A stretch of DNA of 64,000 bases from Chromatiales bacterium. GTDB taxonomy: Bacteria; Pseudomonadota; Gammaproteobacteria; Chromatiales; Chromatiaceae. The position numbers were made by a program, and so were the translations under genes. The notes beneath the pieces were generated by a model, which saw nothing but the letters and a program-made list of their open reading frames with translations, was not told the DNA's origin and did not search any database. Shown piece by piece: positions 45,050 to 63,504 of the stretch; position 1 is the stretch's first letter, and each line of letters begins with the position of its first letter. The stretch is from the NCBI GenBank assembly GCA_030145485.1, contig JAQYVP010000084.1:1900-65899 (forward strand), given 5' to 3'.

Positions 45050-45226
45050 ATGAATTGATGAAGTGAGGAGTGGCGAAAGAGTGACAAGATGCCAGCTGCA
45101 ACTCCCTGATATTTAGCTATTTTCTTATAAAAAACTGACTGGAATGATCTGCTTGATGTGCGCATCGATAGTTCAGATCTTCCCGGAAACATCGATTCCT
45201 GTGAGGAATCATCAGGATTAAAACAC

Positions 45227-49360: not shown

Positions 49361-49370
49361 GAGAGGCCGG

Positions 49371-50798: not shown

Positions 50799-51665
50799 TT
50801 AGTTGTATAGAAATTCTGACCAGCGTCCATTGTTAAGCAGTTCTCTTTTTAAATCGCTCCAGGCTTGCACAGACCCTGCCTTTTTTGCCATGATTCTATC
50901 TGTCGCATCAGCCGTTTTTTGCAAGCCGGCGAGATAGACGTAGGTATTGGGTTGGTTCAGCAATTCCCATGCTTCATCGATGTGCGAGCTGATAGATTGT
51001 TCCAGAGCATCTTTTTCATCGGAGAGAGGTCTATCAGATAAAGCATTGAATGCTTTGAAAGTCTCTTCATCGTAGTAGTTGGAGAGGTCGTTATTCTGGT
51101 CGTTCATATACAACAGATCCATGCCATTGCGCGCTCCGTAGAACAGCCGTACCTGGCCTTTCCATTCGACACCTTTCTGGTAGATACGCTGTATAAGAGA
51201 GCGGAAAGGGGCGATGCCTGTTCCTGTGCCAATCATCAGCAGATTAGCCTCAGTGGAGGCTGGGATTTTGAATATGCTTTTATAGGGGCCTGTTAGACTG
51301 AGTTTCTGCCCAGGGCGAGCGTCGCACAAATAATTTGAAGCAATACCCGGGTATTGTTCACCGTTGAATTCATCAATATAGAAACAACGGCGCACCAGGA
51401 TCGAGATCTCTATATCTTCTTGCAGTGGTCTGTTTTGAGCATTTGTAATGGAATAGCGACGCAAATGCGGTCGGCTGCCAAAAGCCTTGTCTCCATCGAC
51501 AACGATGCCTATGGTCTGCCCGGCAAGAGCACGAAAGGCTGGATCATCAACAACCATTTTGATTTCTCGTACTTCATCGGTTTCCGGGGAAGTAATCCGC
51601 GTGGTCTCCACCAGAACAGCTTTCACCGTTGAATTGAGATCCGGCTCATTTAAATTTACATTCAT
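50799..51665 (-). CDS. Plant-type ferredoxin-NADP+ reductase-like flavoenzyme
   Basis: FAD motif RRYSITN, NAD(P)-binding MIGTGTGIAPFRS, aromatic residue near the C-terminus (FLYN). Start set at the Met of MNVNLN. Confidence 0.75.
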   Translation of the reverse strand: MNVNLNEPDLNSTVKAVLVETTRITSPETDEVREIKMVVDDPAFRALAGQTIGIVVDGDKAFGSRPHLRRYSITNAQNRPLQEDIEISILVRRCFYIDEFNGEQYPGIASNYLCDARPGQKLSLTGPYKSIFKIPASTEANLLMIGTGTGIAPFRSLIQRIYQKGVEWKGQVRLFYGARNGMDLLYMNDQNNDLSNYYDEETFKAFNALSDRPLSDEKDALEQSISSHIDEAWELLNQPNTYVYLAGLQKTADATDRIMAKKAGSVQAWSDLKRELLNNGRWSEFLYN

Positions 51666-51769
51666 GATTTTAGGTTCCACAATTGATTCATATGCCAACA
51701 TACGTTGAGCAACAAGTCCCACGAAAAGAATAAACCTCACAATGAACAAAGTCCACTGTTGAACATCCA

Positions 51770-51940
51770 GGAGGCTGTCCGAGAATACGAAGACCTACTG
51801 CGGCAACACCCTTTTGGCCAGATTATCCGTCTTCAGCGTTGCAGCAAGAGTTACATAACGCTGCTATGCACTTCTTGCTGCGCTTTGAATACGAACAACA
51901 TAGCAGCACGATATTGGTGACATATTTTTTGGAGAACTGC
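51770..51940 (+). mobile_element. MITE family E, copy E3
   Basis: Central segment GCAGCAAGAGTTACATAACGCTGCT and right terminus GACATATTTTTTGGAGAACTGC match E1. The right end abuts the LysR stop codon, sharing one nucleotide with it. Confidence 0.7.
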
Positions 51941-52884
51941 TAACTCTGATCCGTTTCGTGCAGATGCCGGGTAAAAAATACGGGGTCGGCCATGTCGATG
52001 AAGGCCTTCGTCTGCGGATTGAGAAATTTGCCGCGACGTACGACCACTCCGTATGAGCGTTTGGGGATATAGGCATCCAGTGGACGCGCAGCCAGCAATT
52101 CATCACCTGTCAGGCATACGCCTGATACGATCGATATCCCCATCTCCAGGGCCACATACTTTTTGATGATCTCCCAGCCACCCGCCTCCAGTGACACCTT
52201 GAACTTTAGTCCATGCTGACTGAAAACCAGCTCCAGCATACGCCAGGTCGCCAGGTGTCGGGGCGGAAGAATCAGGCCGTAAGCACAGATATCCTTGAGG
52301 ATGAGGTTTTTTTTTGTTGCCAACGGGTGATCGGGTGGTGTAATCAGGACAGGGCTGTAGGCCATGGAGGGGCGGTAGATGATGTCGTCCGGCACATCCA
52401 GCATGGAGCCCACCGCCAGATCTGCTTTATCTGCACGCAGCATGGACATGCCATCCCGCCCGGTGACATTGTGCAGCTTCAGTTGAATTCCTGGGTAGGC
52501 GGCGGAAAAGCGTTTGATGAATTTCGGCAGGATATAGAGAATAGTGGATTCACCGGCGGCGATGTTCAGCTGCCCATGATCCAGCCGTCCGAAATGGGCA
52601 TGAAAATTATCCTCCAGACCTTCGATGCCATCAACCAGTGGTTGGGCTATCTGTAGCAGCACCATTCCTTCAGGTGTCAGAGATATTTTTGGCCCGCGGC
52701 GTTCAAACAGAGTGATTTCCATCTCCCGTTCCAGCGCCTGAATCTGCAGGGTTACCGTAGGCTGGCTCTGGAACAATGCCTCTGCCGCCTGGGAGACGCT
52801 GCCTGTTTTTGCCGCCATGCAGAAGGCGCGCAACTGCTTCAGATGGTTTTGCTTGTAGTACAGCTGTCCGGATTTCCCGCTCAT
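51940..52884 (-). CDS. LysR-family transcriptional regulator
   Basis: N-terminal wHTH (LRAFCMAAKTGSVSQAAEALFQSQPTVTLQIQALE) plus a LysR substrate domain. Divergent from rnfB. Confidence 0.9.
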   Translation of the reverse strand: MSGKSGQLYYKQNHLKQLRAFCMAAKTGSVSQAAEALFQSQPTVTLQIQALEREMEITLFERRGPKISLTPEGMVLLQIAQPLVDGIEGLEDNFHAHFGRLDHGQLNIAAGESTILYILPKFIKRFSAAYPGIQLKLHNVTGRDGMSMLRADKADLAVGSMLDVPDDIIYRPSMAYSPVLITPPDHPLATKKNLILKDICAYGLILPPRHLATWRMLELVFSQHGLKFKVSLEAGGWEIIKKYVALEMGISIVSGVCLTGDELLAARPLDAYIPKRSYGVVVRRGKFLNPQTKAFIDMADPVFFTRHLHETDQS

Positions 52885-53014
52885 AGATCGACTGCTCTTC
52901 CTGGTAGTATTAAAAAATTGAATACATTAAATTTAAACTATATTCTTGATTAATGCTATGACTATCGACTAAATTCTGATACATGCGTAATGGTTTATCT
53001 GGTATACGGAGACT

Positions 53015-53893
53015 ATGTTCGCCATCGACATTTCAAATATCGGCGTAACTATCGCTTTCATGAGCGTGCTGGGACTCGTTTTGTCGGGAGTGCTTGCAAT
53101 TGCCAACCGCAAGCTGTGGGTTTACGAGGATCCGCGTATCGATGAAGTTGAAGAACTGCTGCCTAAAACCAATTGCGGCGCCTGTGGTACTGCCGGCTGC
53201 CGCCCCTTTGCCGAGGCGCTTATTCAGGGGGAGTTGACTCCGGCCAACTGCACCGTCAGCTCCAGCGAGGAGATCGACGAGATCGCAGAATATCTGGGTG
53301 TAGAGGCTGGTGATGTCGTGAAACGGGTCGCCAGGCTCGCCTGTGCCGGAGGCGCCCATGTTGCTCGACAGAGGGCTCACTATGATGGACTTGAATCCTG
53401 CCGCGCTGCCGCCATGGTCGCCGGAGGACCCAAGAGCTGCAGCTGGGGTTGCCTGGGCATGGCGGACTGCGAAGATGTATGCGACCTCGATGCCATCACC
53501 ATGGATCAGCATGGCCTCCCTGTTGTGAACACAGCAAAATGTACCGCCTGTGAGGATTGTGTGGACATTTGCCCCAAAGGGTTGTTTTCCATTCAGCCGA
53601 TAACCCATCGGCTGTGGGTGGCCTGTAATAATTTGCTGCACGATGAAGAGGCGGAATCAGAGTGTGAAGTGGCATGCACGGGCTGCGAAAAATGTGCAAA
53701 GGATGCACCCGATGGTCTGATAGAGATCCGGGATAACCTTGCCCGCATCGATTATTCAAAAAACAGTCTGGCTTCCCCGATACCCATCGAGCGCTGCCCC
53801 ACCGGCGCTATCGTGTGGCTGGATGAAGTGAAAGGGATGCGAAAAGGCATCGAGGCCAAGCACATCATCCGTGAAGAAGCCCTTCCACTGTAG
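53015..53893 (+). CDS. rnfB: Rnf complex subunit B, extended polyferredoxin form
   Basis: N-terminal TM helix; RnfB-type CGACGTAGCRPFAEA cluster domain; several further Cys clusters including the canonical CTACEDCVDICP. 292 aa. Confidence 0.85.
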   Translation: MFAIDISNIGVTIAFMSVLGLVLSGVLAIANRKLWVYEDPRIDEVEELLPKTNCGACGTAGCRPFAEALIQGELTPANCTVSSSEEIDEIAEYLGVEAGDVVKRVARLACAGGAHVARQRAHYDGLESCRAAAMVAGGPKSCSWGCLGMADCEDVCDLDAITMDQHGLPVVNTAKCTACEDCVDICPKGLFSIQPITHRLWVACNNLLHDEEAESECEVACTGCEKCAKDAPDGLIEIRDNLARIDYSKNSLASPIPIERCPTGAIVWLDEVKGMRKGIEAKHIIREEALPL

Positions 53894-53914
53894 ATTTAAG
53901 CGAGGATTAATTCC

Positions 53915-56900
53915 ATGAATTTTGGCAAAAAAGCACCCAAGAGTTTCAAGTATCCTGGCAAGCGCATGGCGATGGACGGCAACACAGCGGTGATCATGTG
54001 TGAGCGCGAAGCATCTGATGCGGCCGGCGCCTATCCCATCACGCCGTCTACGCAGATGGGTGAATACTGGGCCGAGGAGACAGCCAAGGGTCATGTGAAT
54101 ATCTCCAACCGCGCACTGATTTTCGTCGAACCGGAGTCTGAACATGCGGCAGCGGCAGTTACCGCAGGTATGTCCATGACTGGTCTGCGTGCCGCCAATT
54201 TCTCCTCTTCCCAGGGGGTGGCGTTCATGCATGAATCCCTGTATGCCGCAGCGGGAAAACGCTTGCCCTATGTGCTTAATATGGGTTGCCGCGCGATTAC
54301 CAAGGCCAGTCTCAATGTGCATTGCGGGCATGATGATTTTCACTGTGTCGATGATACGGGTTTCTTCCAGCTGTTCGCCAACGATGCCCAGGGGGCGGCA
54401 GATCTGAATTTGATCGGACGCAAGATTGCCGAATATGCGCTCACTCCCGCTGTGGTGGCGCAGGACGGTTTCCTCACCACCCATCTGATTGAACCGCTGC
54501 AGGTGCCGGAGCGTGAACTTATCGATGAGTATCTGGGGCGTCCGGATGACGAGATCGAATGCCCCACACCTGCCCAGCGTATATTGTTCGGTCCGAAGCG
54601 CAGGCGTATACCTGCAATCTGGGATGTGGACAAGCCGATGTTGTCGGGTTCCGTGCAGAACCAGGATGCCTTTATGCAGACTACGGCAGCCCAACGACCC
54701 TATTTCTACGATCATATTGGCAGCATCGCCGAGCAGATGATGGAGGAGTTTTATGAGCTTACCGGGCGCCGTTATGGCCGTATCACCACCTGGAATACGG
54801 ATAAAGCTGACTATGTGATCGTCGGTATGGGCTCCATGCTGGTGCAGGCCCAGGCTGTAGCTGAGTATCTGAAAAAGAGCCGCAAGCTGAAGGTGGGCGT
54901 CCTGGATGTCACCATGTTCCGGCCATTCCCCGGCGATCTTATCAGCAAGGCGCTGAAGGGTAAGAGAGGTGTGGCGGTTCTGGAGCGTACGGATCAGCCG
55001 TTGGCGGAAGATCTGCCTCTGATGCGCGAGGTGCGCGCTGCTATCTCCAAGAGTATCGAAAATGGCCAGAGCGAAGCTGAGCTTCCTTGGCCGGAGTATG
55101 CAACCTATGGCGGGTTCAAGGATTTCCCGCAACTCTACTCCGGCGCCTATGGTCTGGGTTCACGTGATCTGCAGCCGGAAGGCATCATCGGCGCCATCGA
55201 GAACATGCTGCCGGATGGCGGCAGGAAAAAGTTCTACTATCTGGGCATAGATTTCGTGCGTGAGCCTGCAAATCCAAAGCAGGAAGTCTATATCCAGGAT
55301 CTGCAGGAAGCCTATCCGAATATCGGCAGTCTCAGCATTCGGGGTTCTGAAAATCCCGATCTCATGCCGGAAAACTCCATCACGGTGCGCATGCACTCTG
55401 TTGGCGGTTGGGGCGCCATCACTACCGGCAAGAACCTGGCGATGACCCTGTATGATCTGCTTGGTTTCGAGATCCGCGCCAATCCAAAATATGGTTCGGA
55501 AAAGAAAGGCCAGCCGACGACCTATTACCTGGCTGCTGCGCCCGAGCGCATCCCGCTCAATTGTGAGTATCATTTTGTGGATGTGGTCATCTCACCTGAT
55601 CCCAACGTATTCGGCCATTCCGACCCGCTTTCCGGTCTGAAAAAGGGAGGGGTGTTTATCATCCAGTCCACTCTCAGCGAGGAGGAGTTGTGGGCCAGTT
55701 TTTCGCGCCGGGCGCAGCAGTTCATTATTGACAACGAGATTAAGGTATTCAGCATCGATGGATTCAAGATAGCACGTGAGGAGGCCAGCAACCCGGAGCT
55801 GCAACTGCGTATGCAGGGCAACGCATTTCAGGGAGCCTTCTTTGCCGCCTCCCCATTGATGGAGATGGCGGGGCTGGACGAAAAGAAACTGTTCGCCACT
55901 ATTGAAACACAGCTAAACGCCAAATTCGGCGCCAAGGGTAAGCGTGTAGTGGAAGACAACCTGCGGGTGGTGAGAAGGGGATTTGATGAAGCCAGGGAGA
56001 TTAGCCACAGCCAGGCGGTTACCAGCCAGCAGCAACAGATAAAGAGCGCATCACTGCCGGTGATGCTCAAGCATATGCCCGAGGGTGATGGTGGGATCAG
56101 TGATGTCCATCGTTTCTGGGAGCAGACAGGTAGTTTCTATGCGTCTGGCCAGGGTTCGGAGAACCTGGCCGATCCGTTCCAGGCTTTGTCGCTCATTCCC
56201 GCCGCTACCGGCGTTTTTCGGGATATGACCAACATCCGTTTTGACTACCCGCAGTGGATCGCTGAAAACTGCACCGCCTGCGGCGACTGCTACACCCTTT
56301 GTCCGGACAGCTCTATTCCGGGACTGGTGAATTCCGTGAGCGAGGTTTTCAACACGGCAATTGTGCGGGTGGAAACCGGAGGTATACCCACGCAGTATCT
56401 GCGACGCGGCAGTCGTGAGGTGGAAAAACGCCTGCGTGAGCTGCTCAATGAAGCGGGTGAAGAGGCTGAAGTACGCACCCTGCTGGATCAGGCGGTGCTT
56501 GAACACCTCGCTGCAGCAGATGTGCAGGAAGAGAAGAAGGCGCTCATGGAGCAGGAGTTCGCACGTTTTCTGGAAGCCCTTGGCGGGTTTGATTTCTCCA
56601 TAACCAAGCCCTACTGGAACGTCAAGGAGAAGAAGAGCAAAGGCTCGGGCGGTCTGTTTTCCATCACCATCAACCCATACACCTGCAAGGGGTGCATGGA
56701 GTGTGTGGATGTGTGTGATGATGATGCGCTTCGCGCTACGCCGCAGGATCAGGATGCAGTGGAGAAACTGCGCGCAGACTGGAAACTGTGGCTGGATTTG
56801 CCAACCACCAGTGAGGCCTACAGCCGCATCGATGATCTGGATGAAAAAATCGGCGCCCTGGAAACCCTGCTGCTGGACAAGGAGGCCTACCAGTCTATGG

Positions 56901-58843
56901 TGTGCGGCGACGGCGCCTGTGTGGGTTGTGGTGAAAAGACTATCATCCATCTGTTCACCGGAACGGTCTCCAAACTCATGCAGCCGCGTGTGGCGCGGCA
57001 GCTTGCCACACTGGATGATCTCATCGGGCGTCTTGAGCAGCACATCCGTTTGAAGCTGGCTGAAGGTGTGGATCTGACAGATACATCAGCGCTGCTGCAT
57101 GCCGCTGATGAAGCCGAAGGTGATCTCTCCCTGGCTAGGTTGTCAGACTCCCTGGATCCCGGCCATGAATCAACCCTGGTCGACAAGAGCTGGCTGAAAT
57201 GGGCGACAGGGGTGCTGGAGCAACTGCGGGATCTGCGCTGGTGTTATGTGGAAGGCCCGACCGGAAACGGCAGGGCGGCCATGGGTATCGTCAATTCAAC
57301 AGGCTGTACCTCCGTGTGGGGATCCACCTATCCATTCAATCCCTATCCTTTTCCCTGGGCCAGTCATCTGTTCCAGGATAGTCCCTCCATGGCGATGGGG
57401 CTGTTTGAAGGCCATATGGCAAAGATGGCTGATGGCTTCAGGGCAATCCGCATGGCGGAACTGGAGCTGAACGGCAAATACAACTCTGCGGAACATGAGG
57501 CCTGGTTCCAGCAGTTCAACTGGAAGGATTTCTCTCAGGATGAGTGGGAGTTGTGTCCGCCTGTCGTCTCTATTGGTGGCGACGGGGCGATGTATGATAT
57601 CGGCTTCCAAAATCTCTCACGCGCATTGGCTTCCGGCATGCCGATCAAGGTGCTGGTGCTGGATACCCAGGTCTATTCCAATACCGGTGGCCAGGCCTGT
57701 ACTTCCGGTTTCATTTCCCAGGTGGCGGATATGAGCCCCTATGGCAAGGCGATGAAAGGCAAAGAGGAGATCCGCAAGGAGATCTCTCTCATCGGCCTGG
57801 CGCATCGCACCAGTTTTGTGCTGCAGGGAGCGATCAACAATGTGACGCATCTGCTGGAAGGCTTTATCGACGGTCTCAACAGCCGCCGTCCCGCATTGTT
57901 CAATATCTATGCTGTGTGCCAGCCCGAGCATGGCGTCGCAGATGATGCTTCCGCCCGCCAGTCAAAAATGGCTGTAGAGTCACGCGCTTATCCATTGATG
58001 CGCTTCGACCCGGACGCCGGTGTGACCATCGAGGAGTGTCTGGAGTTGGAGGGCAATCCCGCCATGGAGCAGGACTGGCCTGATTATGCGCTCAATTTTG
58101 TGGATGAGAGTGGTAAGGAGTGCAGTATGAAGCTGCCTATGACCTTTGCCGATTTTGCCGCCACCGAAGGGCGTTTCCGCAAGCAGTTCCGGATTGCGCC
58201 GCCGGATACCTGGAGTGACGAGATGGCGCCGTTGCATGAATATCTGGATATGGACGAGGATGATCGGCAGGAGAGTTTTCCCTATATCTGGGGCGTGGAT
58301 GGCAAAAATCGTCTCATCCGTATTATCTGTTCTGCTGAAATGGTGCTCGCTTGTGAGGAGCGGCGCTCCTTCTGGCATCAGCTCAAAGGCATCGCAGGTG
58401 AACTCAACCTGGTGGATGTGGATTCGCTGGTGCAGCAGGCCAAGGTGGAGATGGCAAATCGCCTCAGCTCCACGCTGCTTTCACTGGCGGCTTCCGGCGA
58501 TGCCGGCGCCTTGACAGATGGCTTTTCAACAGAGACTATGGCAGTGCCTGGCGGCAATGGAAGCGCAGGCGGGAACGGGGCGGAAGCACCGGATTACGAG
58601 CCTGTGTGGATAGAGACGCCTGAATGCACGGCTTGTGACGAGTGCACCGAAATTGCTCCCAAAACTTTTGTCTACAATGACGACAAGCTGGCGACGGTGA
58701 GCAATCCCAAGGGAGGCAGTTATAAAGATATCGTACGCGCCGCCGAGAAATGCACCGCCGGCTGTCTGCATCCGGGAACCCCCTGGAACATGGCGGAAAA
58801 AGATATCGACAAGCTGATCAAGCGCGCCGAAAAATATCAATAA
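53915..58843 (+). CDS. Giant 2-oxoacid(pyruvate):ferredoxin oxidoreductase with C-terminal ferredoxin domain
   Basis: 1642 aa. Contains YPITPST, a gamma-domain GGWG region, a split ferredoxin domain (CTACGDCYTLCP ... CKGCMECVDVCD), CVGCGE, the TPP motif GGDGAMYDIGF...SNTGGQ, and a terminal CTACDEC...C ferredoxin module. Confidence 0.9.
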   Translation: MNFGKKAPKSFKYPGKRMAMDGNTAVIMCEREASDAAGAYPITPSTQMGEYWAEETAKGHVNISNRALIFVEPESEHAAAAVTAGMSMTGLRAANFSSSQGVAFMHESLYAAAGKRLPYVLNMGCRAITKASLNVHCGHDDFHCVDDTGFFQLFANDAQGAADLNLIGRKIAEYALTPAVVAQDGFLTTHLIEPLQVPERELIDEYLGRPDDEIECPTPAQRILFGPKRRRIPAIWDVDKPMLSGSVQNQDAFMQTTAAQRPYFYDHIGSIAEQMMEEFYELTGRRYGRITTWNTDKADYVIVGMGSMLVQAQAVAEYLKKSRKLKVGVLDVTMFRPFPGDLISKALKGKRGVAVLERTDQPLAEDLPLMREVRAAISKSIENGQSEAELPWPEYATYGGFKDFPQLYSGAYGLGSRDLQPEGIIGAIENMLPDGGRKKFYYLGIDFVREPANPKQEVYIQDLQEAYPNIGSLSIRGSENPDLMPENSITVRMHSVGGWGAITTGKNLAMTLYDLLGFEIRANPKYGSEKKGQPTTYYLAAAPERIPLNCEYHFVDVVISPDPNVFGHSDPLSGLKKGGVFIIQSTLSEEELWASFSRRAQQFIIDNEIKVFSIDGFKIAREEASNPELQLRMQGNAFQGAFFAASPLMEMAGLDEKKLFATIETQLNAKFGAKGKRVVEDNLRVVRRGFDEAREISHSQAVTSQQQQIKSASLPVMLKHMPEGDGGISDVHRFWEQTGSFYASGQGSENLADPFQALSLIPAATGVFRDMTNIRFDYPQWIAENCTACGDCYTLCPDSSIPGLVNSVSEVFNTAIVRVETGGIPTQYLRRGSREVEKRLRELLNEAGEEAEVRTLLDQAVLEHLAAADVQEEKKALMEQEFARFLEALGGFDFSITKPYWNVKEKKSKGSGGLFSITINPYTCKGCMECVDVCDDDALRATPQDQDAVEKLRADWKLWLDLPTTSEAYSRIDDLDEKIGALETLLLDKEAYQSMVCGDGACVGCGEKTIIHLFTGTVSKLMQPRVARQLATLDDLIGRLEQHIRLKLAEGVDLTDTSALLHAADEAEGDLSLARLSDSLDPGHESTLVDKSWLKWATGVLEQLRDLRWCYVEGPTGNGRAAMGIVNSTGCTSVWGSTYPFNPYPFPWASHLFQDSPSMAMGLFEGHMAKMADGFRAIRMAELELNGKYNSAEHEAWFQQFNWKDFSQDEWELCPPVVSIGGDGAMYDIGFQNLSRALASGMPIKVLVLDTQVYSNTGGQACTSGFISQVADMSPYGKAMKGKEEIRKEISLIGLAHRTSFVLQGAINNVTHLLEGFIDGLNSRRPALFNIYAVCQPEHGVADDASARQSKMAVESRAYPLMRFDPDAGVTIEECLELEGNPAMEQDWPDYALNFVDESGKECSMKLPMTFADFAATEGRFRKQFRIAPPDTWSDEMAPLHEYLDMDEDDRQESFPYIWGVDGKNRLIRIICSAEMVLACEERRSFWHQLKGIAGELNLVDVDSLVQQAKVEMANRLSSTLLSLAASGDAGALTDGFSTETMAVPGGNGSAGGNGAEAPDYEPVWIETPECTACDECTEIAPKTFVYNDDKLATVSNPKGGSYKDIVRAAEKCTAGCLHPGTPWNMAEKDIDKLIKRAEKYQ

Positions 58844-58860
58844 CAACACAGGCTACAGGT

Positions 58861-60201
58861 ATGGGCATTTTCAATTTATTTGGCGCAGGCACATTCAGGC
58901 ATGGCGTGCATCCACCGTCACATAAGGCGGCGACTGCACATCAGCCAATCCGGCGATTGCCTTTTCCTGACCACCTGGTTATCCCTCTCAACCAGCACAT
59001 CGGCAAGCCGGCAAAACTGCTGGTGAAAAAAGGGCAGGAGGTGGTGCGTGGCGAACCTCTCGCCAGTGCAGACGGCTTTGTCTCGGTTCCCATTCATGCT
59101 CCGGCCACGGGCCGCATCCGCGATATCAGGCTCATGCCCTCCGCCAGGGGGGAGCAGGCCATGGCGATTATTCTGCATGTCTATGCAGCGGCCACGCAGG
59201 AGGTGTTGTGGCGCAACCCTGTGGATCCTGGCGCACTGGATCCACAGGGGATGATTCAGGCCATTCAGGATACGGGTATGGTGGGACTGGGTGGCGCCGC
59301 ATTCCCCTCCCATGTGAAGCTCTCCATTCCTGAAGAGAAGAGCGTCGATACACTGGTCGTCAATGGTTGTGAATGTGAGCCATACCTGAGCTGCGATCAC
59401 CGCACCATGCTGGAGCATCCACGCGAGCTGATGCGCGGCATTCGTTATGCGATGCAGGCTACCGGAGTCAGCAAGGCGATTGTGGGTGTGGAAGAGAATA
59501 AGATGGATGCAGTGAAACTGCTGCGTGAGCACCTGCATGCGCAGAGCGATATCAGCGTGGAAGCTGTAGAGACGAAATACCCCCAGGGATCGGAAAAGAT
59601 GCTGATCAAATCCCTCATGGGACGGGAAGTTCCTGCCGGAGGAATTCCCCTGGATATCGGCGTAGTCGTGAATAACGTGGGCACCCTGGCTGCCCTCGGC
59701 AAGCTGCTCCCTGTTGGCGAAGGATTGACAGAACGTGTGGTGACGGTTACGGGACCGGGTGTCGAAAAACCGGGCAACTATATTATTCCTCTCGGTACTC
59801 CTATCGGCTATGTACTGAAACAGGTTGGATATATTGGAGGGGAGAATGAATTCATACTGGGCGGCCCCATGATGGGTCCTTCGGTTTCAGACATGGAAAC
59901 CCCTGTGACCAAGGGTACCTCCGGTCTGCTGGTTTTGAATGAACCTGAAATTGAACAGGAGACCCGCCGCATCTGGCCATGCATCAAATGCGGCCGCTGT
60001 CTCAACGCATGCCCCATGCACCTCAATCCGGCGTATCTGGGACTGTTGGCCGCCAAGCGGGAGTATGAAGAGATGGCGCAAACGTATCACCTCAATGACT
60101 GCTTCGAGTGCGGCTGCTGCTCTTATGTCTGCCCCTCCAATATCCCGCTGGTGCAGCACTTCCGCATCGCCAAGGCGATCAACCGCGAACAGGCAGCCTG
60201 A
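58861..60201 (+). CDS. rnfC: Rnf complex subunit C
   Basis: GLGGAAFP NADH/FMN region and two 4Fe-4S motifs (CIKCGRCLNACP, CFECGCCSYVCP). Start set at the Met of MGIFNLFG. Confidence 0.9.
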   Translation: MGIFNLFGAGTFRHGVHPPSHKAATAHQPIRRLPFPDHLVIPLNQHIGKPAKLLVKKGQEVVRGEPLASADGFVSVPIHAPATGRIRDIRLMPSARGEQAMAIILHVYAAATQEVLWRNPVDPGALDPQGMIQAIQDTGMVGLGGAAFPSHVKLSIPEEKSVDTLVVNGCECEPYLSCDHRTMLEHPRELMRGIRYAMQATGVSKAIVGVEENKMDAVKLLREHLHAQSDISVEAVETKYPQGSEKMLIKSLMGREVPAGGIPLDIGVVVNNVGTLAALGKLLPVGEGLTERVVTVTGPGVEKPGNYIIPLGTPIGYVLKQVGYIGGENEFILGGPMMGPSVSDMETPVTKGTSGLLVLNEPEIEQETRRIWPCIKCGRCLNACPMHLNPAYLGLLAAKREYEEMAQTYHLNDCFECGCCSYVCPSNIPLVQHFRIAKAINREQAA

Positions 60202-61238
60202 TGGCTAAAAAACCTGCCATCGAGTTGCGCACAACGCCGCATATTCATGCGCCGCAGGATGTGATAATGATCATGCGCAACGTAGTGTATGCCTCCCTTC
60301 CCATGGCGGCCTGGGCTGTCTGGCAATATGGCTTGAGCGCCCTGATGCTGCTGCTTGTTGTCGTTGCCAGCTGCATGCTGAGCGAGCGCGTGCTCAATGC
60401 GAAACAGGGCAACACTCTGGGTGACTGGTCAGCCGCTATTACCGGTATCCTGCTGTTTCTCACTCTGCCTCCAGGTTTCCCCCTGTGGATGGGCGTCATC
60501 GCCGGGTTTAGTGCGATTGGCCTGGGCAAGGCGTTGTTTGGCGGGCTGGGGATGAATGTTTTCAACCCTGCGCTGGTGGGACGCGCCTTTGTACAGGCCG
60601 CCTTTCCGGTGGCCATCACCAGTTGGACGCCGGCGTTCTTTGATGGCCGCTTTACCACCCTGATTCCTTCGACGCTGACGGCGCCTTTCATGATCCCGCC
60701 AGAGACGGGCGAATGGAATATGCAGGTGGCGGTGGACGCATTCACAGGCGCCACCCCGCTTGGGTTGCAAAAGTTTGACGCTGTAAGCACTCCTGTGCTG
60801 GATTTACTCACCGGTATGACAGCGGGTTCCGCCGGCGAGTCTGCAGCATTGATCATCCTCGTGTGCGGTCTCTATCTGGCATTTCGCGGCATGCTGGACT
60901 GGCGCATACCTGTTGCGGTTATGGCTGGAACCGCAATCACCGCTGCGGTATTCCATTTCATCGACCCGGTGGCTTATCCTGACGCCATGTTCATGCTGTT
61001 TTCCGGCGGACTCATGTTGGGCGCCTGGTTCATGGCGTCGGACATGGTCGGTTCGCCCGTAACGCCCGCAGGTGTGATCATCTACGGGCTGCTGATAGGG
61101 TTCGTTACCGTCATTATCCGCCTGTTTGGCGGACTGACCGAGGGTGTCATGTATGCCATACTGCTGGGCAATGCCGTCACTCCTCTCATCGATCAAGTCA
61201 CACAGCCACGGGTATTTGGCCACAGGAAATCTTCATGA
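60201..61238 (+). CDS. rnfD: Rnf complex subunit D
   Basis: Polytopic NqrB/RnfD family with the TGATPL flavinylation motif. The ATG overlaps the rnfC TGA. Confidence 0.9.
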   Translation: MAKKPAIELRTTPHIHAPQDVIMIMRNVVYASLPMAAWAVWQYGLSALMLLLVVVASCMLSERVLNAKQGNTLGDWSAAITGILLFLTLPPGFPLWMGVIAGFSAIGLGKALFGGLGMNVFNPALVGRAFVQAAFPVAITSWTPAFFDGRFTTLIPSTLTAPFMIPPETGEWNMQVAVDAFTGATPLGLQKFDAVSTPVLDLLTGMTAGSAGESAALIILVCGLYLAFRGMLDWRIPVAVMAGTAITAAVFHFIDPVAYPDAMFMLFSGGLMLGAWFMASDMVGSPVTPAGVIIYGLLIGFVTVIIRLFGGLTEGVMYAILLGNAVTPLIDQVTQPRVFGHRKSS

Positions 61239-61924
61239 GCACTGCTGAGCAGCAGCTGCAGGTTCCTCAGAGCCCCAGCATCTCCATGATGGTGGTGCTC
61301 AGCAGCATCGCCATGGTGTCGGGGTTTCTGGTGGTGTTGGTCTCCCAGTTGACTGCTCCAATCATCGCCGAGAATCAACGCAGGGCGATCGAACGGGCGC
61401 TGGTTCAGGTAATCCCCGGTTCAGTCAGTCATGAGGAATTTCTGTTGCAGGATGGAAAGCTGCTGCCTGCAGAAGATTCGGCTGCGGGTGAAAGCGTCTA
61501 TGCAGGCTATGACGCCAATGGCGAACTGGTGGGCATTGCAGCGCGCGCCGCCGCCCAGGGCTATGCGGATATGATTCACCTGCTGTATGGCTATGACCCG
61601 GCCTGTGAATGTATTCGCGGGATTAAAGTGCTGAAGATGGCGGAAACTCCCGGGTTAGGGGACAAAATCATCAAGGATGCCGATTTCCTGGCCAATTTTG
61701 ATGCACTTGATGCCAGTGTGGATATGCAGCAAATGGCACTGGTGAATCCTATTATCATGGTCAAACACGGCAGCAAGCAGCATCCATGGGAGATAGATGC
61801 GATATCCGGCGCCACTATCTCCGCCAAGGCTGTAGGCAAAGCTTTGAACCAGTCGGCGCAGGCGCTGCTGCCGCAACTGCTGCCGCTCATGCAGCAGTTG
61901 GAACGGCAGGAGCAGCAGCCATGA
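61235..61924 (+). CDS. rnfG: Rnf complex subunit G
   Basis: N-terminal anchor and an FMN-binding domain with the SGATISAKAV motif. Confidence 0.82.
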   Translation: MSTAEQQLQVPQSPSISMMVVLSSIAMVSGFLVVLVSQLTAPIIAENQRRAIERALVQVIPGSVSHEEFLLQDGKLLPAEDSAAGESVYAGYDANGELVGIAARAAAQGYADMIHLLYGYDPACECIRGIKVLKMAETPGLGDKIIKDADFLANFDALDASVDMQQMALVNPIIMVKHGSKQHPWEIDAISGATISAKAVGKALNQSAQALLPQLLPLMQQLERQEQQP

Positions 61925-62580
61925 GTCAACGCAGGAGTGATCCACATATTACCTGGGATAGCTTTTCCGAAGGACTATGGAGAAACAACCCGGTGTTTGT
62001 CATGCTGCTGGGGATGTGTCCGGTGCTGGCCGTGACCAATTCTGCCATGAATGCTCTGGCGATGGGGCTGGCAACCACTTTCGTACTGGTGGCTTCCGGT
62101 TACCTGGTGTCACTGTTGAGCCGATTCATTCCTCGCCAGGTGCGCATCGCCACCTACATCGTCATCATCGCCACCTTTGTCACCATCATCGACTATGTGA
62201 TCCAGGCAATCTCTCTTGATCTCTACAATTCACTGGGCGCTTTCATCCAGCTGATCGTGGTGAACTGCATGATTCTGGGACGGGCGGAAGCCTATGCATC
62301 CAAAAACCGCCCCATGAAATCAGTGGTGAATGCACTGGGTATGGGAGCCGGTTTTACCTTTGCCCTGCTGTGTTTGGGAGGCGTACGCGAATTGCTGGGC
62401 ACCGGCGCCCTGTTTGGCTTTGATCTGTTTGGTCCGCAATTTCAGCCATGGGTGGTGATGGTTCTGCCTCCCGGCGGCTTCCTGGTTCTGGGAGCCTGGC
62501 TGCTGCTGTTTGACTGGTTGAAGCAGCGCCGCGAGCAGAAACAACTGGCAATATCCGGAGAGCAAACCAATGCAGTCTGA
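61921..62580 (+). CDS. rnfE: Rnf complex subunit E
   Basis: GLWRNNPVFVMLLGMCP signature of RnfE/NqrD. ATGA overlap with rnfG. Confidence 0.9.
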   Translation: MSQRRSDPHITWDSFSEGLWRNNPVFVMLLGMCPVLAVTNSAMNALAMGLATTFVLVASGYLVSLLSRFIPRQVRIATYIVIIATFVTIIDYVIQAISLDLYNSLGAFIQLIVVNCMILGRAEAYASKNRPMKSVVNALGMGAGFTFALLCLGGVRELLGTGALFGFDLFGPQFQPWVVMVLPPGGFLVLGAWLLLFDWLKQRREQKQLAISGEQTNAV

Positions 62581-63154
62581 TTCCCTTATATTTATCTTTT
62601 TGAATACTGTACTGGCGAATAACTTCGTACTAGCGATGTTCCTGGGTCTGTGTCCTTTTCTGGGGGTATCCGGCAAGCTCAACACGGCTGTCCCCATGGG
62701 TATCGCCACTATGTTCGTCATGCTGGTGAGTTCAGTCTGTGCATTTGCCATCAACAAGGTGCTGGTTGCCCTGGATATTGAATTTTTACGCCTGATCGCT
62801 TACATCGCCATCATCGCTAGCGCCGTACAGCTGGTTGAGATGGGACTCAAAAAATACAGCCCCACTCTGTTCCGCTCTCTGGGGATTTTTCTGCCGCTGA
62901 TTACGACCAACTGCGCCATCCTTGGTCTGGCACTGTTTCAGACCTTCAAGGAGTACAATTTCAGCCAGTCACTGGTTTATGCCGTAGGAGCAGGGATCGG
63001 GTTTATCCTGGCGATTACGTTGATGGCGGGGTTGCGGGAAAAACTTCTCTTATCCACTTTGCCCAGCGTCACACAGGGTGCGGCACTGAGTCTTATGCTG
63101 GGAGGATTGCTTTCGCTCACTTTTATGGGTTTTGCAGGCTTGGGAAATCTCTGA
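62570..63154 (+). CDS. rnfA: Rnf complex subunit A
   Basis: NNFVLAMFLGLCPFLGVS signature of RnfA/NqrE. 11-nt overlap with rnfE. Confidence 0.9.
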   Translation: MQSDSLIFIFLNTVLANNFVLAMFLGLCPFLGVSGKLNTAVPMGIATMFVMLVSSVCAFAINKVLVALDIEFLRLIAYIAIIASAVQLVEMGLKKYSPTLFRSLGIFLPLITTNCAILGLALFQTFKEYNFSQSLVYAVGAGIGFILAITLMAGLREKLLLSTLPSVTQGAALSLMLGGLLSLTFMGFAGLGNL

Positions 63155-63156
63155 AT

Positions 63157-63345
63157 ATGTGGCAATATGTGATCGCGATGATCCTTGTGCCTGTGCTGCT
63201 CATCGGCTGGCTGATCATCCAGCAGTTGGGGCGGCGCTCTGCCAAAGCGCACCCGGAGATGGGCGCCTATCGGGAAGAGGGAGGCGGCTGCGGAAAGAGT
63301 TGCGGCTGTCATGGCGGCAGCTGTAAGAATAAGAACAAGGAGTGA
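63157..63345 (+). CDS. Small membrane-anchored Cys-rich protein (resembles FeoB-associated Cys-rich family)
   Basis: 62 aa; one N-terminal TM helix, then GGGCGKSCGCHGGSCKNKNKE. The ATG lies 2 nt after the rnfA stop. Confidence 0.5.
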   Translation: MWQYVIAMILVPVLLIGWLIIQQLGRRSAKAHPEMGAYREEGGGCGKSCGCHGGSCKNKNKE

Positions 63346-63362
63346 GTAATAAGATGAATAGC

Positions 63363-63503
63363 AGCAATTCTCAATGTACCAATATAGTGCCAACACCTAA
63401 AAAGACTTTTACCACGAAGGACACGAAGATCACGAAGAATCAACAGAGTATTAAAGGTCTTCGTGTCCTTCGTGGTGAGCTTCTCTCTACATTTAGAATT
63501 GCT
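63363..63503 (+). mobile_element. MITE family A, copy A3 (141 bp)
   Basis: Same termini and core. Perfect 10-bp duplication GATGAATAGC at 63353-63362 and 63504-63513, which includes the ppsR ATG. Confidence 0.9.
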
Positions 63504-63504
63504 G

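What the first reader, a model, noticed from the sequence alone, without database searches (positions are those of the whole stretch)
53015..63345. Rnf ion-pump operon split open by a giant PFOR-ferredoxin fusion (rnfB - OFOR - rnfCDGEA - Cys-rich ORF)
Seen in sequence: eight co-directional genes are packed with gaps of 2-21 nt or overlapping stop/start codons. The junctions are 21 nt (rnfB to OFOR), 17 nt (OFOR to rnfC), TGATG at rnfC/D, ATGA at D/G and G/E, an 11-nt overlap at E/A, and 2 nt to the last ORF. The only non-Rnf enzyme, a 1642-aa 2-oxoacid:ferredoxin oxidoreductase, sits between rnfB and rnfC. Established knowledge: Rnf couples NADH-ferredoxin electron transfer to an ion gradient, and RnfB is the ferredoxin-facing subunit. 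PFOR working as pyruvate synthase needs low-potential ferredoxin. The described rnf orders are ABCDGE(H) and CDGEAB, and I do not know of a described locus with the ferredoxin-consuming enzyme embedded between B and C. Inference: this may be a dedicated, possibly physically coupled module in which ion-motive force drives NADH-dependent reductive carboxylation of acetyl-CoA or another acyl-CoA. Electrons would pass from the extended RnfB polyferredoxin to the ferredoxin domain fused to the OFOR. Context fits a pyruvate-synthesis role: ppsR is immediately downstream, and a divergent LysR regulator and an FNR lie upstream.
Basis: partly seen in the sequence, partly recalled or inferred. Interest (0 to 1): 0.85.

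Follow-up and report, generated by a model that had tools for sequence, protein, structure and literature searches.

The report
Rnf operon with built-in pyruvate oxidoreductase
The window carries a real, tightly packed operon in which a giant pyruvate:ferredoxin-oxidoreductase-like enzyme with its own tethered ferredoxin sits inside the genes of the Rnf membrane ion pump; the layout is conserved in hundreds of bacteria and was noted in print in 2014, but its function has never been tested.

Summary
The arrangement is not rare. In 80 species genomes, rnfB lies directly upstream in 74 of 74 assessable loci and rnfC directly downstream in 68 of 69. These are mostly sulfur- and iron-oxidising Gamma- and Betaproteobacteria. 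All 80 metagenome loci with more distant relatives are also rnf-linked. So are relatives that lack the fused ferredoxin in Calditrichota, Cloacimonadota and Krumholzibacteriota (Latescibacterota only up to a cut rnfC), and a fused one in Gemmatimonadota. The whole "long PFOR" family therefore travels with Rnf. The enzyme keeps the residues that align with the PFOR pyruvate-contact residues, the TPP motif and Cys for three clusters. It adds two helical inserts, a C-terminal domain, a disordered linker and a single-cluster ferredoxin domain. A plant-type ferredoxin-NADP reductase and the small membrane Cys protein are conserved companions; ppsR is not. The 2014 Solemya velum symbiont genome paper already reported PFOR genes between rnfB2 and rnfC2. 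Functional coupling is well supported. Verdict: new member of a known but uncharacterised operon type; moderate interest.

The parts
50799..51749 (-). Plant-type ferredoxin-NADP+ reductase-like gene (316 aa). It is a conserved companion of the operon.
   Evidence: Pfam NAD_binding_1 and FAD_binding_6. NCBIfam PetH-type FNR at 148-150 bits and BoxA at 125 bits, all below the equivalog cut-offs. In other genomes it lies directly downstream of rnfA or the small ORF on the same strand. That holds for 26 of 61 genome loci and 15 of 27 metagenome loci with enough flank. In one layout it sits between rnfA and rnfB.
51940..52884 (-). Divergent LysR-family regulator (314 aa).
   Evidence: Pfam HTH_1 plus LysR_substrate. 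The best NCBIfam hit is the CysB family, below its cut-off. An orthologue (>50% identity) lies divergently upstream of rnfB in 26 of the 80 genome loci.
52885..53014 (.). 130-bp AT-rich divergent intergenic region, presumed to be the control region for lysR and the rnf operon.
   Evidence: Sequence read. One sigma-70-like match for the minus strand at 52964-52937. No function was tested.
53015..53893 (+). rnfB, long polyferredoxin type (292 aa). It has an N-terminal membrane helix, an 'FeS' domain and further Fe-S motifs. Its 20 invariant Cys are enough for five clusters.
   Evidence: Pfam FeS PF04060 and Fer4_7. It aligns end to end with Acetobacterium woodii RnfB (9ERI_B, E 1.4e-47) and Clostridium tetanomorphum RnfB (7ZC6_B, 6.6e-43). 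All 20 Cys are 100% conserved in 120 orthologues.
53915..58843 (+). Long PFOR-like 2-oxoacid:ferredoxin oxidoreductase (1642 aa), fused to a ferredoxin.
   Evidence: Pfam POR_N, PFOR_II, POR, TPP_enzyme_C and Fer4_13. The best PDB match is Moorella PFOR 6CIN (E 2.5e-83), aligned in four blocks. TIGR02176 scores 402 bits against a cut-off of 911. T43, R126 and N1256 are invariant in the family. They align with the residues that I recall as the PFOR pyruvate contacts. The GGDG...YSNTGGQ TPP motif is also invariant. So are Cys 786/789/792/796, 924/927/930/934 and 1002/1005/1131/1335.
56318..56638 (+). Insert 1 of the OFOR (aa ~802-908), between the two Cys motifs of the dicluster ferredoxin domain.
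   Evidence: It falls in the gap in the alignment to 6CIN. The model predicts four helices with pLDDT 72-85 (model residues 49-130). No separate structural match was found.
56957..57283 (+). Insert 2 of the OFOR (aa ~1015-1123), ahead of the TPP-binding domain.
   Evidence: It falls in the gap in the alignment to 6CIN. The model predicts long helices, including one of 45 residues, with pLDDT up to 92.
58016..58471 (+). C-terminal alpha/beta domain specific to the long family (aa ~1368-1519).
   Evidence: It has no counterpart in 6CIN or 1B0P beyond their residue ~1107. The model has pLDDT 80-89 and a mix of strands and helices.
58472..58591 (+). Flexible Gly/Ala/Ser-rich linker (aa ~1520-1559).
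   Evidence: Its sequence is variable in the family consensus. pLDDT is below 50.
58607..58840 (+). Fused single-cluster ferredoxin domain (aa ~1565-1642), with CxxCxxC...C ligands C1571, C1574, C1577 and C1613.
   Evidence: Pfam Fer4_13 at 1569-1619. It matches Desulfovibrio africanus ferredoxin I (1DAX, E 9.6e-6). The Cys are invariant. The same domain is present in distant relatives at 33-50% identity.
58861..60201 (+). rnfC (446 aa), with NADH/FMN-binding and 2x[4Fe-4S] motifs.
   Evidence: TIGR01945 scores 512 bits against a cut-off of 246. Pfam RnfC_N, Complex1_51K, SLBB and Fer4.
60201..61238 (+). rnfD (345 aa).
   Evidence: TIGR01946 scores 281 bits against 207. The TGAT flavin-attachment motif is visible in the translation. 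The start overlaps the rnfC stop as TGATG.
61235..61924 (+). rnfG (229 aa).
   Evidence: Pfam FMN_bind. TIGR01947 scores 99.7 bits against a cut-off of 102. The SGAT motif is in the translation.
61921..62580 (+). rnfE (219 aa).
   Evidence: TIGR01948 scores 241 bits against 213. The paired Cys motifs (GMCPV, VNCMI) are in the translation.
62570..63154 (+). rnfA (194 aa).
   Evidence: TIGR01943 scores 232.7 bits against 229.3. The paired Cys motifs (GLCPF, TNCAI) are in the translation.
63157..63345 (+). Small membrane protein (62 aa): one TM helix, an HPE(F/L)GP motif and a 4-Cys tail. It is a conserved last gene of this rnf lineage.
   Evidence: No Pfam or NCBIfam hit. Its 18 database homologues carry no Pfam domain. 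The only source-given names among them are 'chemotaxis protein' and 'hypothetical protein'. A Cys-containing small ORF follows rnfA in 64 of 65 genome loci scanned. About eight of these picks look like wrong-frame artefacts. ORFs with the same architecture follow rnfA in Gemmatimonadota, Krumholzibacteriota and Cloacimonadota loci.
63411..63476 (.). REP-like perfect 18-bp inverted repeat marking the 3' boundary of the operon, ahead of ppsR (which starts at 63505).
   Evidence: Coordinates. The unit occurs 9 times in the window against 0.04 expected, at three sites. The 63340-63510 stretch folds at -62 kcal/mol, z = -9.2.

Best explanation
The locus encodes one functional unit: an Rnf ferredoxin:NAD+ ion pump with its own 2-oxoacid oxidoreductase.

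The 1642-aa enzyme is a PFOR-type, TPP- and Fe-S-dependent enzyme that most likely acts on pyruvate. It carries its redox partner as a single-cluster ferredoxin domain on a disordered ~40-residue tether. The proposed electron path runs from TPP through the three internal clusters to the tethered ferredoxin. From there it goes to the five-cluster RnfB, and through RnfA/E, G, D and C to NAD+.

The net reaction would be pyruvate + CoA + NAD+ <-> acetyl-CoA + CO2 + NADH, coupled to H+ or Na+ translocation. That would be an energy-conserving, oxygen-sensitive equivalent of pyruvate dehydrogenase, and it would be reversible in principle.

The adjacent plant-type FNR would link the same ferredoxin to NADP(H). 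The small Cys-rich membrane protein would be an accessory or maturation subunit, in the position that NqrM holds in nqr operons. The LysR protein would be the local regulator.

Shown here: gene content, cofactor motifs, the tether architecture and cross-phylum gene-order conservation. Inferred: the substrate, the electron path, any physical docking and the direction. I lean towards the oxidative direction (pyruvate feeding Rnf) as the commoner physiological mode, with reversal possible when acetate or acetyl-CoA must be assimilated.
For: - Tight operon with overlapping stops and starts, and no internal signals above chance.
- In 80 species genomes, rnfB lies directly upstream in 74 of 74 loci and rnfC directly downstream in 68 of 69. 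rnfCDGEA is in order in 63 of 63.
- All 80 metagenome loci, with OFOR identity down to 33% by best tblastn segment (mostly 44-64%), are rnf-linked. This includes a second layout, OFOR-rnfCDGEA-FNR-rnfB.
- Long PFORs that lack the fused ferredoxin still sit between rnfB and rnfC in Calditrichota, Cloacimonadota and Krumholzibacteriota. In Latescibacterota the cluster stops at a cut rnfC. A fused one in Gemmatimonadota does the same. These loci also carry a second kor-type OFOR, the small Cys ORF and ApbE in various combinations.
- Catalytic and cluster residues are invariant.
- The C-terminal domain matches D. africanus ferredoxin I.
- The linker is variable in sequence and predicted to be disordered.
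- RnfB is of the structurally characterised A. woodii / C. tetanomorphum type, and its 20 Cys are invariant.
- The published reading for the Solemya velum symbiont is that pyruvate is the electron donor for Rnf2 (PMC4287430).
Against: - No transcript, protein, interaction or activity data exist for any member in the searchable literature. That library is limited to open-access papers.
- The OFOR scores far below the NCBIfam PFOR equivalog cut-off (402 bits against 911), so the substrate is inferred only from aligned residues.
- Many hosts are CBB autotrophs or phototrophs. Classical work on Chromatium (Buchanan, Bachofen and Arnon 1964, from my own knowledge) shows ferredoxin-dependent pyruvate synthesis there, so the reductive direction cannot be dismissed.
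- The structure model is only moderate (mean pLDDT 61) and says nothing about docking.
Confidence: 0.6

Rival explanations
1. The module works mainly in reverse. Ion-motive force drives NADH -> RnfB -> tethered ferredoxin -> PFOR, which reductively carboxylates acetyl-CoA to pyruvate. This would make it a dedicated pyruvate synthase for acetate or acetyl-CoA assimilation.
For: - The same anatomy supports it, because both PFOR and Rnf are reversible enzymes (established knowledge; Rnf reversal is reviewed in PMC12174285).
- The hosts include purple sulfur bacteria (Allochromatium, Thiocapsa, Marichromatium) and many autotrophs.
- A. vinosum photo-assimilates acetate (PMC3368242).
- Ferredoxin-dependent pyruvate synthesis is classical for Chromatium (my own knowledge).
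- In the window, ppsR follows the operon.
Against: - ppsR adjacency is found in none of the 80 related genome loci.
- The same module occurs in Cloacimonadota, Calditrichota, Latescibacterota and Krumholzibacteriota. I know these as mostly anaerobic organotrophs, for which oxidation of 2-oxoacids is the expected direction.
- No carboxylation-specific partner is conserved in the cluster. For example, there is no carbonic anhydrase, PEP synthase or pyruvate carboxylase.
- The thermodynamics are tight: about 180-200 mV uphill for two electrons (my own estimate).
Confidence: 0.25
2. Co-expression without a private electron wire. The OFOR simply supplies or draws on the general cellular ferredoxin pool, for example for nitrogenase or other ferredoxin-dependent enzymes. 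Rnf and FNR then balance that pool. The fused ferredoxin would be an internal or oxygen-protective domain rather than a shuttle to RnfB.
For: - Many hosts are diazotrophs with several rnf clusters. A. vinosum has three (PMC3368242), and the Solemya symbiont has two.
- A large part of the long-PFOR family lacks the fused ferredoxin yet keeps the rnf linkage. The fusion is therefore not required for the association.
- Some loci encode a free Fer4_13 ferredoxin nearby, as in L164.
Against: - Placement inside the operon is conserved across phyla, and that is hard to explain by loose pool-level coupling.
- The family-specific helical inserts and C-terminal domain are conserved in both subtypes. They are candidates for a docking surface.
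Confidence: 0.2
3. The enzyme is not a pyruvate enzyme. It would act on another 2-oxoacid, such as 2-oxoglutarate, 2-oxobutyrate or a branched-chain or aromatic 2-oxoacid, or on an unknown substrate.
For: - The score is less than half the PFOR equivalog cut-off.
- There are about 470 extra residues relative to the solved PFORs.
Against: - The residues that align with the known pyruvate-contact residues of PFOR (Thr in YPITPST, Arg in the R-A-I/L motif, Asn in YSNTGGQ) are invariant across the family.
- In FCB-group and Gemmatimonadota loci, a separate kor-type alpha/beta OFOR is encoded alongside. This suggests that the two enzymes divide the substrates between them.
Confidence: 0.15

Closest known systems
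rnf2 (rnfBCDGEA) operon of the Solemya velum gill symbiont (Dmytrenko et al. 2014, BMC Genomics, PMC4287430)
   Same: The paper states that PFOR genes lie between rnfB2 and rnfC2. Here the same symbiont is locus L050, with rnfB-OFOR-rnfCDGEA-small ORF-FNR and an OFOR 68% identical to the window's.
   Different: The paper gives it one sentence in a genome description, with no analysis of the enzyme and no experiments. It does not mention the fused ferredoxin, the inserts, the FNR and small-ORF companions, or the cross-phylum conservation.
Structurally solved Rnf complexes of Acetobacterium woodii (9ERI) and Clostridium tetanomorphum (7ZC6)
   Same: The six-subunit Rnf is the same. RnfB is of the same long polyferredoxin type and aligns over residues 9-270.
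   Different: From my own knowledge, those operons are rnfCDGEAB and use a free ferredoxin. Here the order is B...CDGEA, with an OFOR inserted. RnfB has 20 conserved Cys and lacks several Cys of the last A. woodii motifs and its extra C-terminal dicluster domain.
Homodimeric PFOR of Moorella thermoacetica (6CIN) and Desulfovibrio africanus (1B0P), with D. africanus ferredoxin I (1DAX) as a free ferredoxin
   Same: The domain order is the same, as are the TPP motif, the three [4Fe-4S] Cys sets and the aligned substrate-contact residues. The C-terminal domain is homologous to D. africanus ferredoxin I.
   Different: This enzyme is about 410-470 residues longer. It has a 106-aa helical insert inside the ferredoxin domain, a ~108-aa helical insert before the TPP domain, and a ~150-aa extra C-terminal domain. 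The ferredoxin is fused through a linker. It scores below the PFOR equivalog cut-off.
Rnf clusters that feed nitrogenase (Rhodobacter capsulatus rnf; Azotobacter vinelandii Rnf1)
   Same: They set the precedent for an Rnf encoded next to its ferredoxin-dependent partner system and running in the energy-consuming direction (review PMC12174285).
   Different: These use the order rnfABCDGE(H) with a short RnfB. 8AHX_B matches only the first ~90 residues of the window's RnfB. The partner is nitrogenase and ferredoxins, not an OFOR, and no enzyme lies inside the operon.
nqr operon accessory genes apbE and nqrM of Vibrio cholerae
   Same: A small single-helix, Cys-rich membrane protein and ApbE are encoded at the end of the operon of the homologous pump (PMC12174285). 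Here the order is rnfA-small ORF(-ApbE) in L164 and L165, and rnfA-small ORF in the window.
   Different: No sequence-level match to any Pfam or NCBIfam model, including NqrM, was obtained. The resemblance is in position and architecture only.

Membership tests
Rnf complex (RnfABCDGE-type ferredoxin:NAD+ oxidoreductase) | All six subunits present and recognised by family models | tested here: met
   RnfB, C, D, E and A score above the TIGRFAM cut-offs. RnfG scores 99.7 against 102 but has the FMN_bind Pfam domain.
Rnf complex (RnfABCDGE-type ferredoxin:NAD+ oxidoreductase) | Cofactor sites: flavin-attachment S/TGAT motifs in RnfG and RnfD, paired Cys in RnfA and RnfE, and Fe-S motifs in RnfB and RnfC | tested here: met
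   SGAT (RnfG), TGAT (RnfD), GLCPF/TNCAI (RnfA) and GMCPV/VNCMI (RnfE) are visible in the translations. RnfB has 20 invariant Cys. RnfC has Fer4 motifs.
Rnf complex (RnfABCDGE-type ferredoxin:NAD+ oxidoreductase) | Ion-translocating ferredoxin:NAD+ oxidoreductase activity | not testable with these tools
   This needs membrane biochemistry.
Pyruvate:ferredoxin oxidoreductase, single-chain type (NCBIfam TIGR02176) | Score above the curated equivalog cut-off | tested here: not met
   402 bits against a cut-off of 911, matched in 3 stretches.
Pyruvate:ferredoxin oxidoreductase, single-chain type (NCBIfam TIGR02176) | Domain order I-II-III-V-VI, with the TPP/Mg motif and Cys for three [4Fe-4S] clusters | tested here: met
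   Pfam domains. Alignment to 6CIN and 1B0P. The GGDG...YSNTGGQ motif and the 12 Cys are invariant.
Pyruvate:ferredoxin oxidoreductase, single-chain type (NCBIfam TIGR02176) | Pyruvate-contact residues (Thr of YPITPST, the Arg of domain I, Asn of YSNTGGQ) | tested here: met
   T43, R126 and N1256 are aligned and invariant. Their identification as contact residues rests on my knowledge of the D. africanus structure.
Pyruvate:ferredoxin oxidoreductase, single-chain type (NCBIfam TIGR02176) | Pyruvate/CoA-dependent ferredoxin reduction, or the reverse reaction | not testable with these tools
   This needs an enzyme assay.
rnfB-PFOR-rnfCDGEA operon type (Solemya velum symbiont rnf2) | PFOR-like gene between rnfB and rnfC of an rnfBCDGEA cluster, all on one strand | tested here: met
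   Window. L050 is the Solemya velum symbiont and has the same order. The description is in PMC4287430.
rnfB-PFOR-rnfCDGEA operon type (Solemya velum symbiont rnf2) | Orthology of the embedded enzyme (long form, ~1640 aa, with C-terminal Fer4_13) | tested here: met
   More than 100 clusters at 70-88% identity and 80 genome loci at 63-77% identity (best tblastn segment), nearly all ~1630-1690 aa where full length.
NqrM-type maturation factor (for the 62-aa ORF) | Match to the NqrM family model | tested here: not met
   No Pfam or NCBIfam hit, even at E <= 10. Its homologues carry no Pfam domain.
NqrM-type maturation factor (for the 62-aa ORF) | One TM helix plus a cytoplasmic 4-Cys cluster, encoded at the 3' end of the pump operon | tested here: met
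   Comparison with the nqr operon description in PMC12174285.
Plant-type ferredoxin-NADP+ reductase (for 50799-51749) | FAD-binding and NAD(P)-binding domains of the FNR fold, and similarity to PetH | tested here: inconclusive
   The domains are present. PetH-type models score 148-150 bits over residues 31-311, below cut-offs of 600-635. One of those two models (bifunc_CpcD_PetH) includes an extra CpcD domain.

The most novel reading that the evidence does not exclude
The long PFOR family would be a dedicated peripheral arm of a particular Rnf lineage. Its two helical inserts and extra C-terminal domain would dock the dimeric enzyme onto RnfB/RnfC. The result would be a membrane-bound, ion-translocating pyruvate:NAD+ oxidoreductase supercomplex. 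Its ferredoxin would be tethered, fused in Proteobacteria and Gemmatimonadota and separate elsewhere. The complex would replace pyruvate dehydrogenase under low oxygen while conserving about 35 kJ/mol. It could be run backwards as a pmf-driven, NADH-dependent pyruvate synthase. It would be ancient and shared by FCB-group phyla, Gemmatimonadota and sulfur- and iron-oxidising Proteobacteria.
Probability: 0.3. Interest if true: 0.75.

Novelty: new member of a known kind. Interest (0 to 1): 0.45.

Why it matters
If the coupling is real, many environmentally dominant bacteria have a previously uncharacterised way of handling the pyruvate/acetyl-CoA node. These include sulfur and iron oxidisers, purple sulfur bacteria, and the chemosynthetic symbionts of clams and tubeworms. 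The step would either conserve energy as an ion gradient or spend the gradient to fix CO2 into pyruvate. That would change carbon and energy budgets in models of these organisms. It would explain one of the multiple rnf clusters whose role the A. vinosum genome paper called 'entirely unclear'. It would also give structural biology a natural Rnf-partner complex with a tethered ferredoxin. The system can be tested directly in genetically tractable hosts that carry the operon (Allochromatium, Thiocapsa).

Tried and rejected
- **Internal promoters or terminators.** The consensus scan found nothing above shuffled expectation. This is a weak test.
- **Rfam.** The whole window gave no hits.
- **Riftia 'PFOR-like' gene.** I checked whether the 'PFOR-like' gene of the Riftia co-expression study is this enzyme. 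It is a small ferredoxin-like gene next to korAB(3), so it is unrelated.
- **Literature.** Searches for any characterisation found only the 2014 Solemya sentence. The terms covered Thiodiazotropha, Endoriftia, Allochromatium with Alvin_2673-2681 locus tags, Sideroxydans, Ferrigenium, Thiothrix, 'between rnfB' and rnfCDGEA. The library is open-access only, so absence is not proof.
- **Structure.** AlphaFold2 of residues 760-1642 gave a moderate model (pLDDT 61). Foldseek against the PDB returned only PFOR, OOR and OGOR TPP domains, so the inserts remain without a structural relative.
- **Small ORF.** Pfam, NCBIfam and a homologue search gave no family assignment and no useful name, so it cannot be filed as NqrM.
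- **ppsR context.** Rejected as evidence, because it is not conserved.
- **Wider upstream context.** rlmN, rodZ, hisS, bamB and der are housekeeping genes and uninformative here.
- **The one synteny exception.** L026 has a sensor kinase and a phosphoglycerate mutase inserted between the OFOR and rnfC. It is not a different system.

Full report
**1. Observation**

The ORF map and direct reading of the junctions confirm the finding. The genes are:

| Gene | Coordinates | Length |
|---|---|---|
| rnfB | 53015-53893 | 292 aa |
| OFOR | 53915-58843 | 1642 aa |
| rnfC | 58861-60201 | 446 aa |
| rnfD | 60201-61238 | 345 aa |
| rnfG | 61235-61924 | 229 aa |
| rnfE | 61921-62580 | 219 aa |
| rnfA | 62570-63154 | 194 aa |
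| small ORF | 63157-63345 | 62 aa |

The gaps are 21 nt and 17 nt, then TGATG, ATGA, ATGA, an 11-nt overlap and 2 nt. Pfam and NCBIfam recognise all six Rnf subunits. Five score above their curated cut-offs, and RnfG scores 99.7 against 102.

The large protein has POR_N, PFOR_II, POR, two Fer4 motifs, TPP_enzyme_C and a C-terminal Fer4_13 domain. A consensus scan finds no excess of promoter- or terminator-like sites inside the operon.

Downstream, a perfect 18-bp inverted repeat at 63411-63476 precedes ppsR, which starts at 63505. The repeat belongs to a REP-like family with three sites in the window. Upstream lie a divergent LysR gene (51940-52884) and an FNR-fold gene (50799-51749) on the minus strand. 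Beyond them are housekeeping genes: der, bamB, hisS, rodZ and rlmN.

**2. The enzyme**

Against solved structures, the best matches are the single-chain PFORs of Moorella thermoacetica (6CIN, E 2.5e-83) and Desulfovibrio africanus (1B0P). The alignment is broken into four blocks, and the gaps define family-specific additions:

- Residues ~802-908 lie between the two Cys motifs of the dicluster ferredoxin domain.
- Residues ~1015-1123 lie ahead of the TPP domain.
- Everything after ~1368 has no PFOR counterpart.

The TPP motif (GGDG...DTQVYSNTGGQ) is conserved. Cys 786/789/792/796, 924/927/930/934 and 1002/1005/1131/1335 are invariant in the family alignment. So are T43, R126 and N1256. These three align with the residues that I know as the pyruvate contacts of the D. 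africanus enzyme.

Residues 1565-1619 match D. africanus ferredoxin I (1DAX, E 9.6e-6), with invariant CxxCxxC...C ligands.

I modelled residues 760-1642 with AlphaFold2. The model is moderate: mean pLDDT 61, and low over the Fe-S parts. It predicts:

- insert 1 as four helices;
- insert 2 as long helices;
- residues ~1368-1519 as a well-defined alpha/beta domain (pLDDT 80-89);
- residues ~1520-1573 as disordered, a stretch that is also variable in sequence.

Foldseek returns only the TPP domains of PFOR, oxalate oxidoreductase and OGOR. The additions therefore have no solved relative. The protein scores 402 bits against the 911-bit cut-off of the NCBIfam PFOR equivalog. It is best described as PFOR-like, with pyruvate as the probable but untested substrate.

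**3. RnfB and the companion genes**

RnfB aligns over almost its whole length with the long polyferredoxin RnfB of Acetobacterium woodii (9ERI_B, 1.4e-47) and Clostridium tetanomorphum (7ZC6_B). Only its first ~90 residues match the short Azotobacter RnfB. Its 20 Cys are 100% conserved in 120 orthologues, which is enough for five clusters. Several Cys of the last A. woodii motifs are absent.

The 62-aa ORF has one TM helix, an HPE(F/L)GP motif and a 4-Cys tail. A Cys-containing small ORF follows rnfA in 64 of 65 genome loci scanned. About eight of those automated picks look like wrong-frame artefacts. ORFs with the same architecture follow rnfA in Gemmatimonadota, Krumholzibacteriota and Cloacimonadota loci. 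It matches no Pfam or NCBIfam model, and its homologues carry no Pfam domain and no useful name. In position and architecture it resembles NqrM of nqr operons (PMC12174285). This is an analogy, not a membership.

The FNR-fold gene is closest to plant- and cyanobacterial-type ferredoxin-NADP reductases.

**4. Distribution and synteny**

Homologues of the OFOR at 70-88% identity, nearly all ~1635-1685 aa where full length, fill the top of a 5.8-billion-protein search. Their source names include Thiodiazotropha, Sedimenticola, tubeworm and clam symbionts and Thiohalomonadaceae.

A scan of one genome per species found at least 579 genomes with a relative. The best 80 include:

- Sedimenticola and Thiodiazotropha, and Lamellibrachia and Solemya symbionts;
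- Allochromatium, Thiocapsa, Marichromatium, Ectothiorhodospira and Thiothrix;
- Sulfuritalea, Sulfurisoma, Thiobacillus, Gallionella/Ferrigenium and Hydrogenophilus;
- Rhodoferax and one Shewanella.

tblastn with the window's proteins gives the following counts:

| Feature | Loci showing it / assessable |
|---|---|
| rnfB directly upstream of the OFOR | 74 / 74 |
| rnfC directly downstream | 68 / 69 |
| rnfCDGEA in order | 63 / 63 |

The single exception, L026, has a sensor kinase and a phosphoglycerate mutase inserted between the OFOR and rnfC. The LysR gene lies divergently upstream in 26 loci. The FNR gene lies directly downstream on the same strand in 26 of 61 loci. ppsR is adjacent in none.

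A representative-level search with residues 800-1642 shows a large family of 1500-1700-aa forms, down to ~28% identity. Some have the C-terminal ferredoxin and some do not.

A metagenome scan seeded with distant ferredoxin-fused members returned 80 loci. Their OFOR identity to the window runs from 33% (one locus, L117) to 65% by best tblastn segment, and most lie at 44-64%. All 80 are rnf-linked. They come in two layouts: rnfB-OFOR-rnfCDGEA(-small ORF)(-FNR), and OFOR-rnfCDGEA-FNR-rnfB.

Look-ups of individual proteins show the same core in other phyla:

- Ferredoxin-less long PFORs in Calditrichota, Cloacimonadota and Krumholzibacteriota.
- Latescibacterota, where the cluster stops at a cut rnfC.
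- A ferredoxin-fused one in Gemmatimonadota.

Their layout is a kor-type alpha/beta OFOR (only the beta gene in the Cloacimonadota locus), a large unknown protein, rnfB, the long PFOR, rnfCDGEA, the small Cys ORF and ApbE. Some also carry a free Fer4_13 ferredoxin. The association of this PFOR family with this Rnf lineage is therefore a property of the family, not an accident of one genome.

**5. Literature**

The order rnfBCDGEA is described for Chlorobi/Bacteroidetes (PMC4014512). [quoted passage not shown] The A. vinosum genome paper lists three rnf clusters and calls their role 'entirely unclear' (PMC3368242). No other paper in the library mentions the locus tags of the nine-gene cluster. 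A 2025 Rnf/Nqr review does not discuss this arrangement. I found no experimental work on it.

**6. Mechanism**

The best-supported reading is a dedicated module. A PFOR-type enzyme exchanges electrons with Rnf through a tethered ferredoxin domain, or a separate ferredoxin in the lineages without the fusion. The net reaction is pyruvate + CoA + NAD+ <-> acetyl-CoA + CO2 + NADH, coupled to ion translocation. An FNR branch leads to NADP(H).

- **Shown:** gene content, cofactor motifs, tether architecture and conserved gene order.
- **Inferred:** substrate, electron path, docking and direction.

It fits the classical ferredoxin-dependent pyruvate synthesis of Chromatium (my own knowledge). But its only contextual support, ppsR, fails the conservation test.

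The same module occurs in phyla that I know mainly as anaerobic organotrophs. Together with the published suggestion, this leans towards oxidation of pyruvate feeding Rnf. That would be an energy-conserving substitute for pyruvate dehydrogenase under low oxygen. The evidence does not decide the question. I give the coupled-module reading 0.6 and the mainly reductive reading 0.25. Loose pool-level coupling gets 0.2 and a non-pyruvate substrate 0.15. The last two are not exclusive of the others.

**7. Novelty and verdict**

The locus is a further member of an operon type that is present in hundreds of public genomes and was remarked on in 2014. It is not a new arrangement. The following points seem not to have been described:

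- the embedded enzyme belongs to a distinct long PFOR family with its own inserts;
- in many lineages it carries a tethered ferredoxin;
- the family is Rnf-linked across phyla;
- a small Cys-rich membrane protein and an FNR are conserved companions.

No function has been tested in any member. Interest is moderate (0.45). The finding is unsurprising in principle to a specialist. It does offer a well-defined and widespread system in which the role of Rnf in autotrophs can be tested directly.

Noticed in passing
window 10741-10800, 12085-12145, 63411-63476: A REP-like palindromic element is built from ACGAAGGnCACGAAG units in inverted pairs. There are 9 matches against 0.04 expected. The copy after the rnf operon forms a very stable hairpin (region dG -62 kcal/mol, z = -9.2) without a T-run.
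   Followed up: partly
window 63157-63345; also L001-L080 after rnfA, L163 (~18.3-18.5 kb), L164 14807-15088, L165 18256-18432: An unannotated small protein family (one TM helix, an HPE(F/L)GP motif in Proteobacteria, and a 4-Cys tail) always follows rnfA in this Rnf lineage across phyla. It has no Pfam or NCBIfam model. One NCBI record names a homologue 'chemotaxis protein', which looks like a misannotation.
   Followed up: partly
L083, L095, L097, L098, L100, L111, L112, L115, L116, L118: An alternative operon layout, OFOR-rnfCDGEA-FNR-rnfB. rnfB has moved to the 3' end and the ferredoxin-NADP reductase gene lies inside the operon. The source organisms are unknown (metagenome contigs).
   Followed up: partly
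L161 852-8124, L162 2553-8049, L164 3-4897, L165 4267-8148: In FCB-group and Gemmatimonadota loci, a second, kor-type alpha/beta OFOR precedes rnfB. It is followed by a large protein of 338-1460 aa. The 1460-aa version has weak PFOR_II/POR matches and a C-terminal Fer4_13 domain. The 338-aa version has no Pfam match.
   Followed up: partly
L026 14920-20322: This is the only genome locus where the OFOR and rnfC are separated. A CHASE-domain histidine kinase and a cofactor-independent phosphoglycerate mutase are inserted, and rnfE and rnfA appear fragmented in this long-read MAG.
   Followed up: partly
L033 3184-8214: A Chromatiaceae MAG carries a second, divergent set of rnf genes (rnfA, rnfC and rnfE at 37-42% identity) immediately upstream of the rnfB-OFOR operon. 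Two different rnf clusters are therefore adjacent.
   Followed up: no
window 36239-50756: The upstream region holds a typical gammaproteobacterial housekeeping block: aminotransferase, homoserine dehydrogenase, PBP1-type transglycosylase/transpeptidase, rlmN, a TPR protein, rodZ, hisS, a yfgM-like gene, bamB and der. The rnf-OFOR operon sits in core chromosome, not in an obvious island, and GC is roughly even at 0.53-0.58 across the operon.
   Followed up: partly
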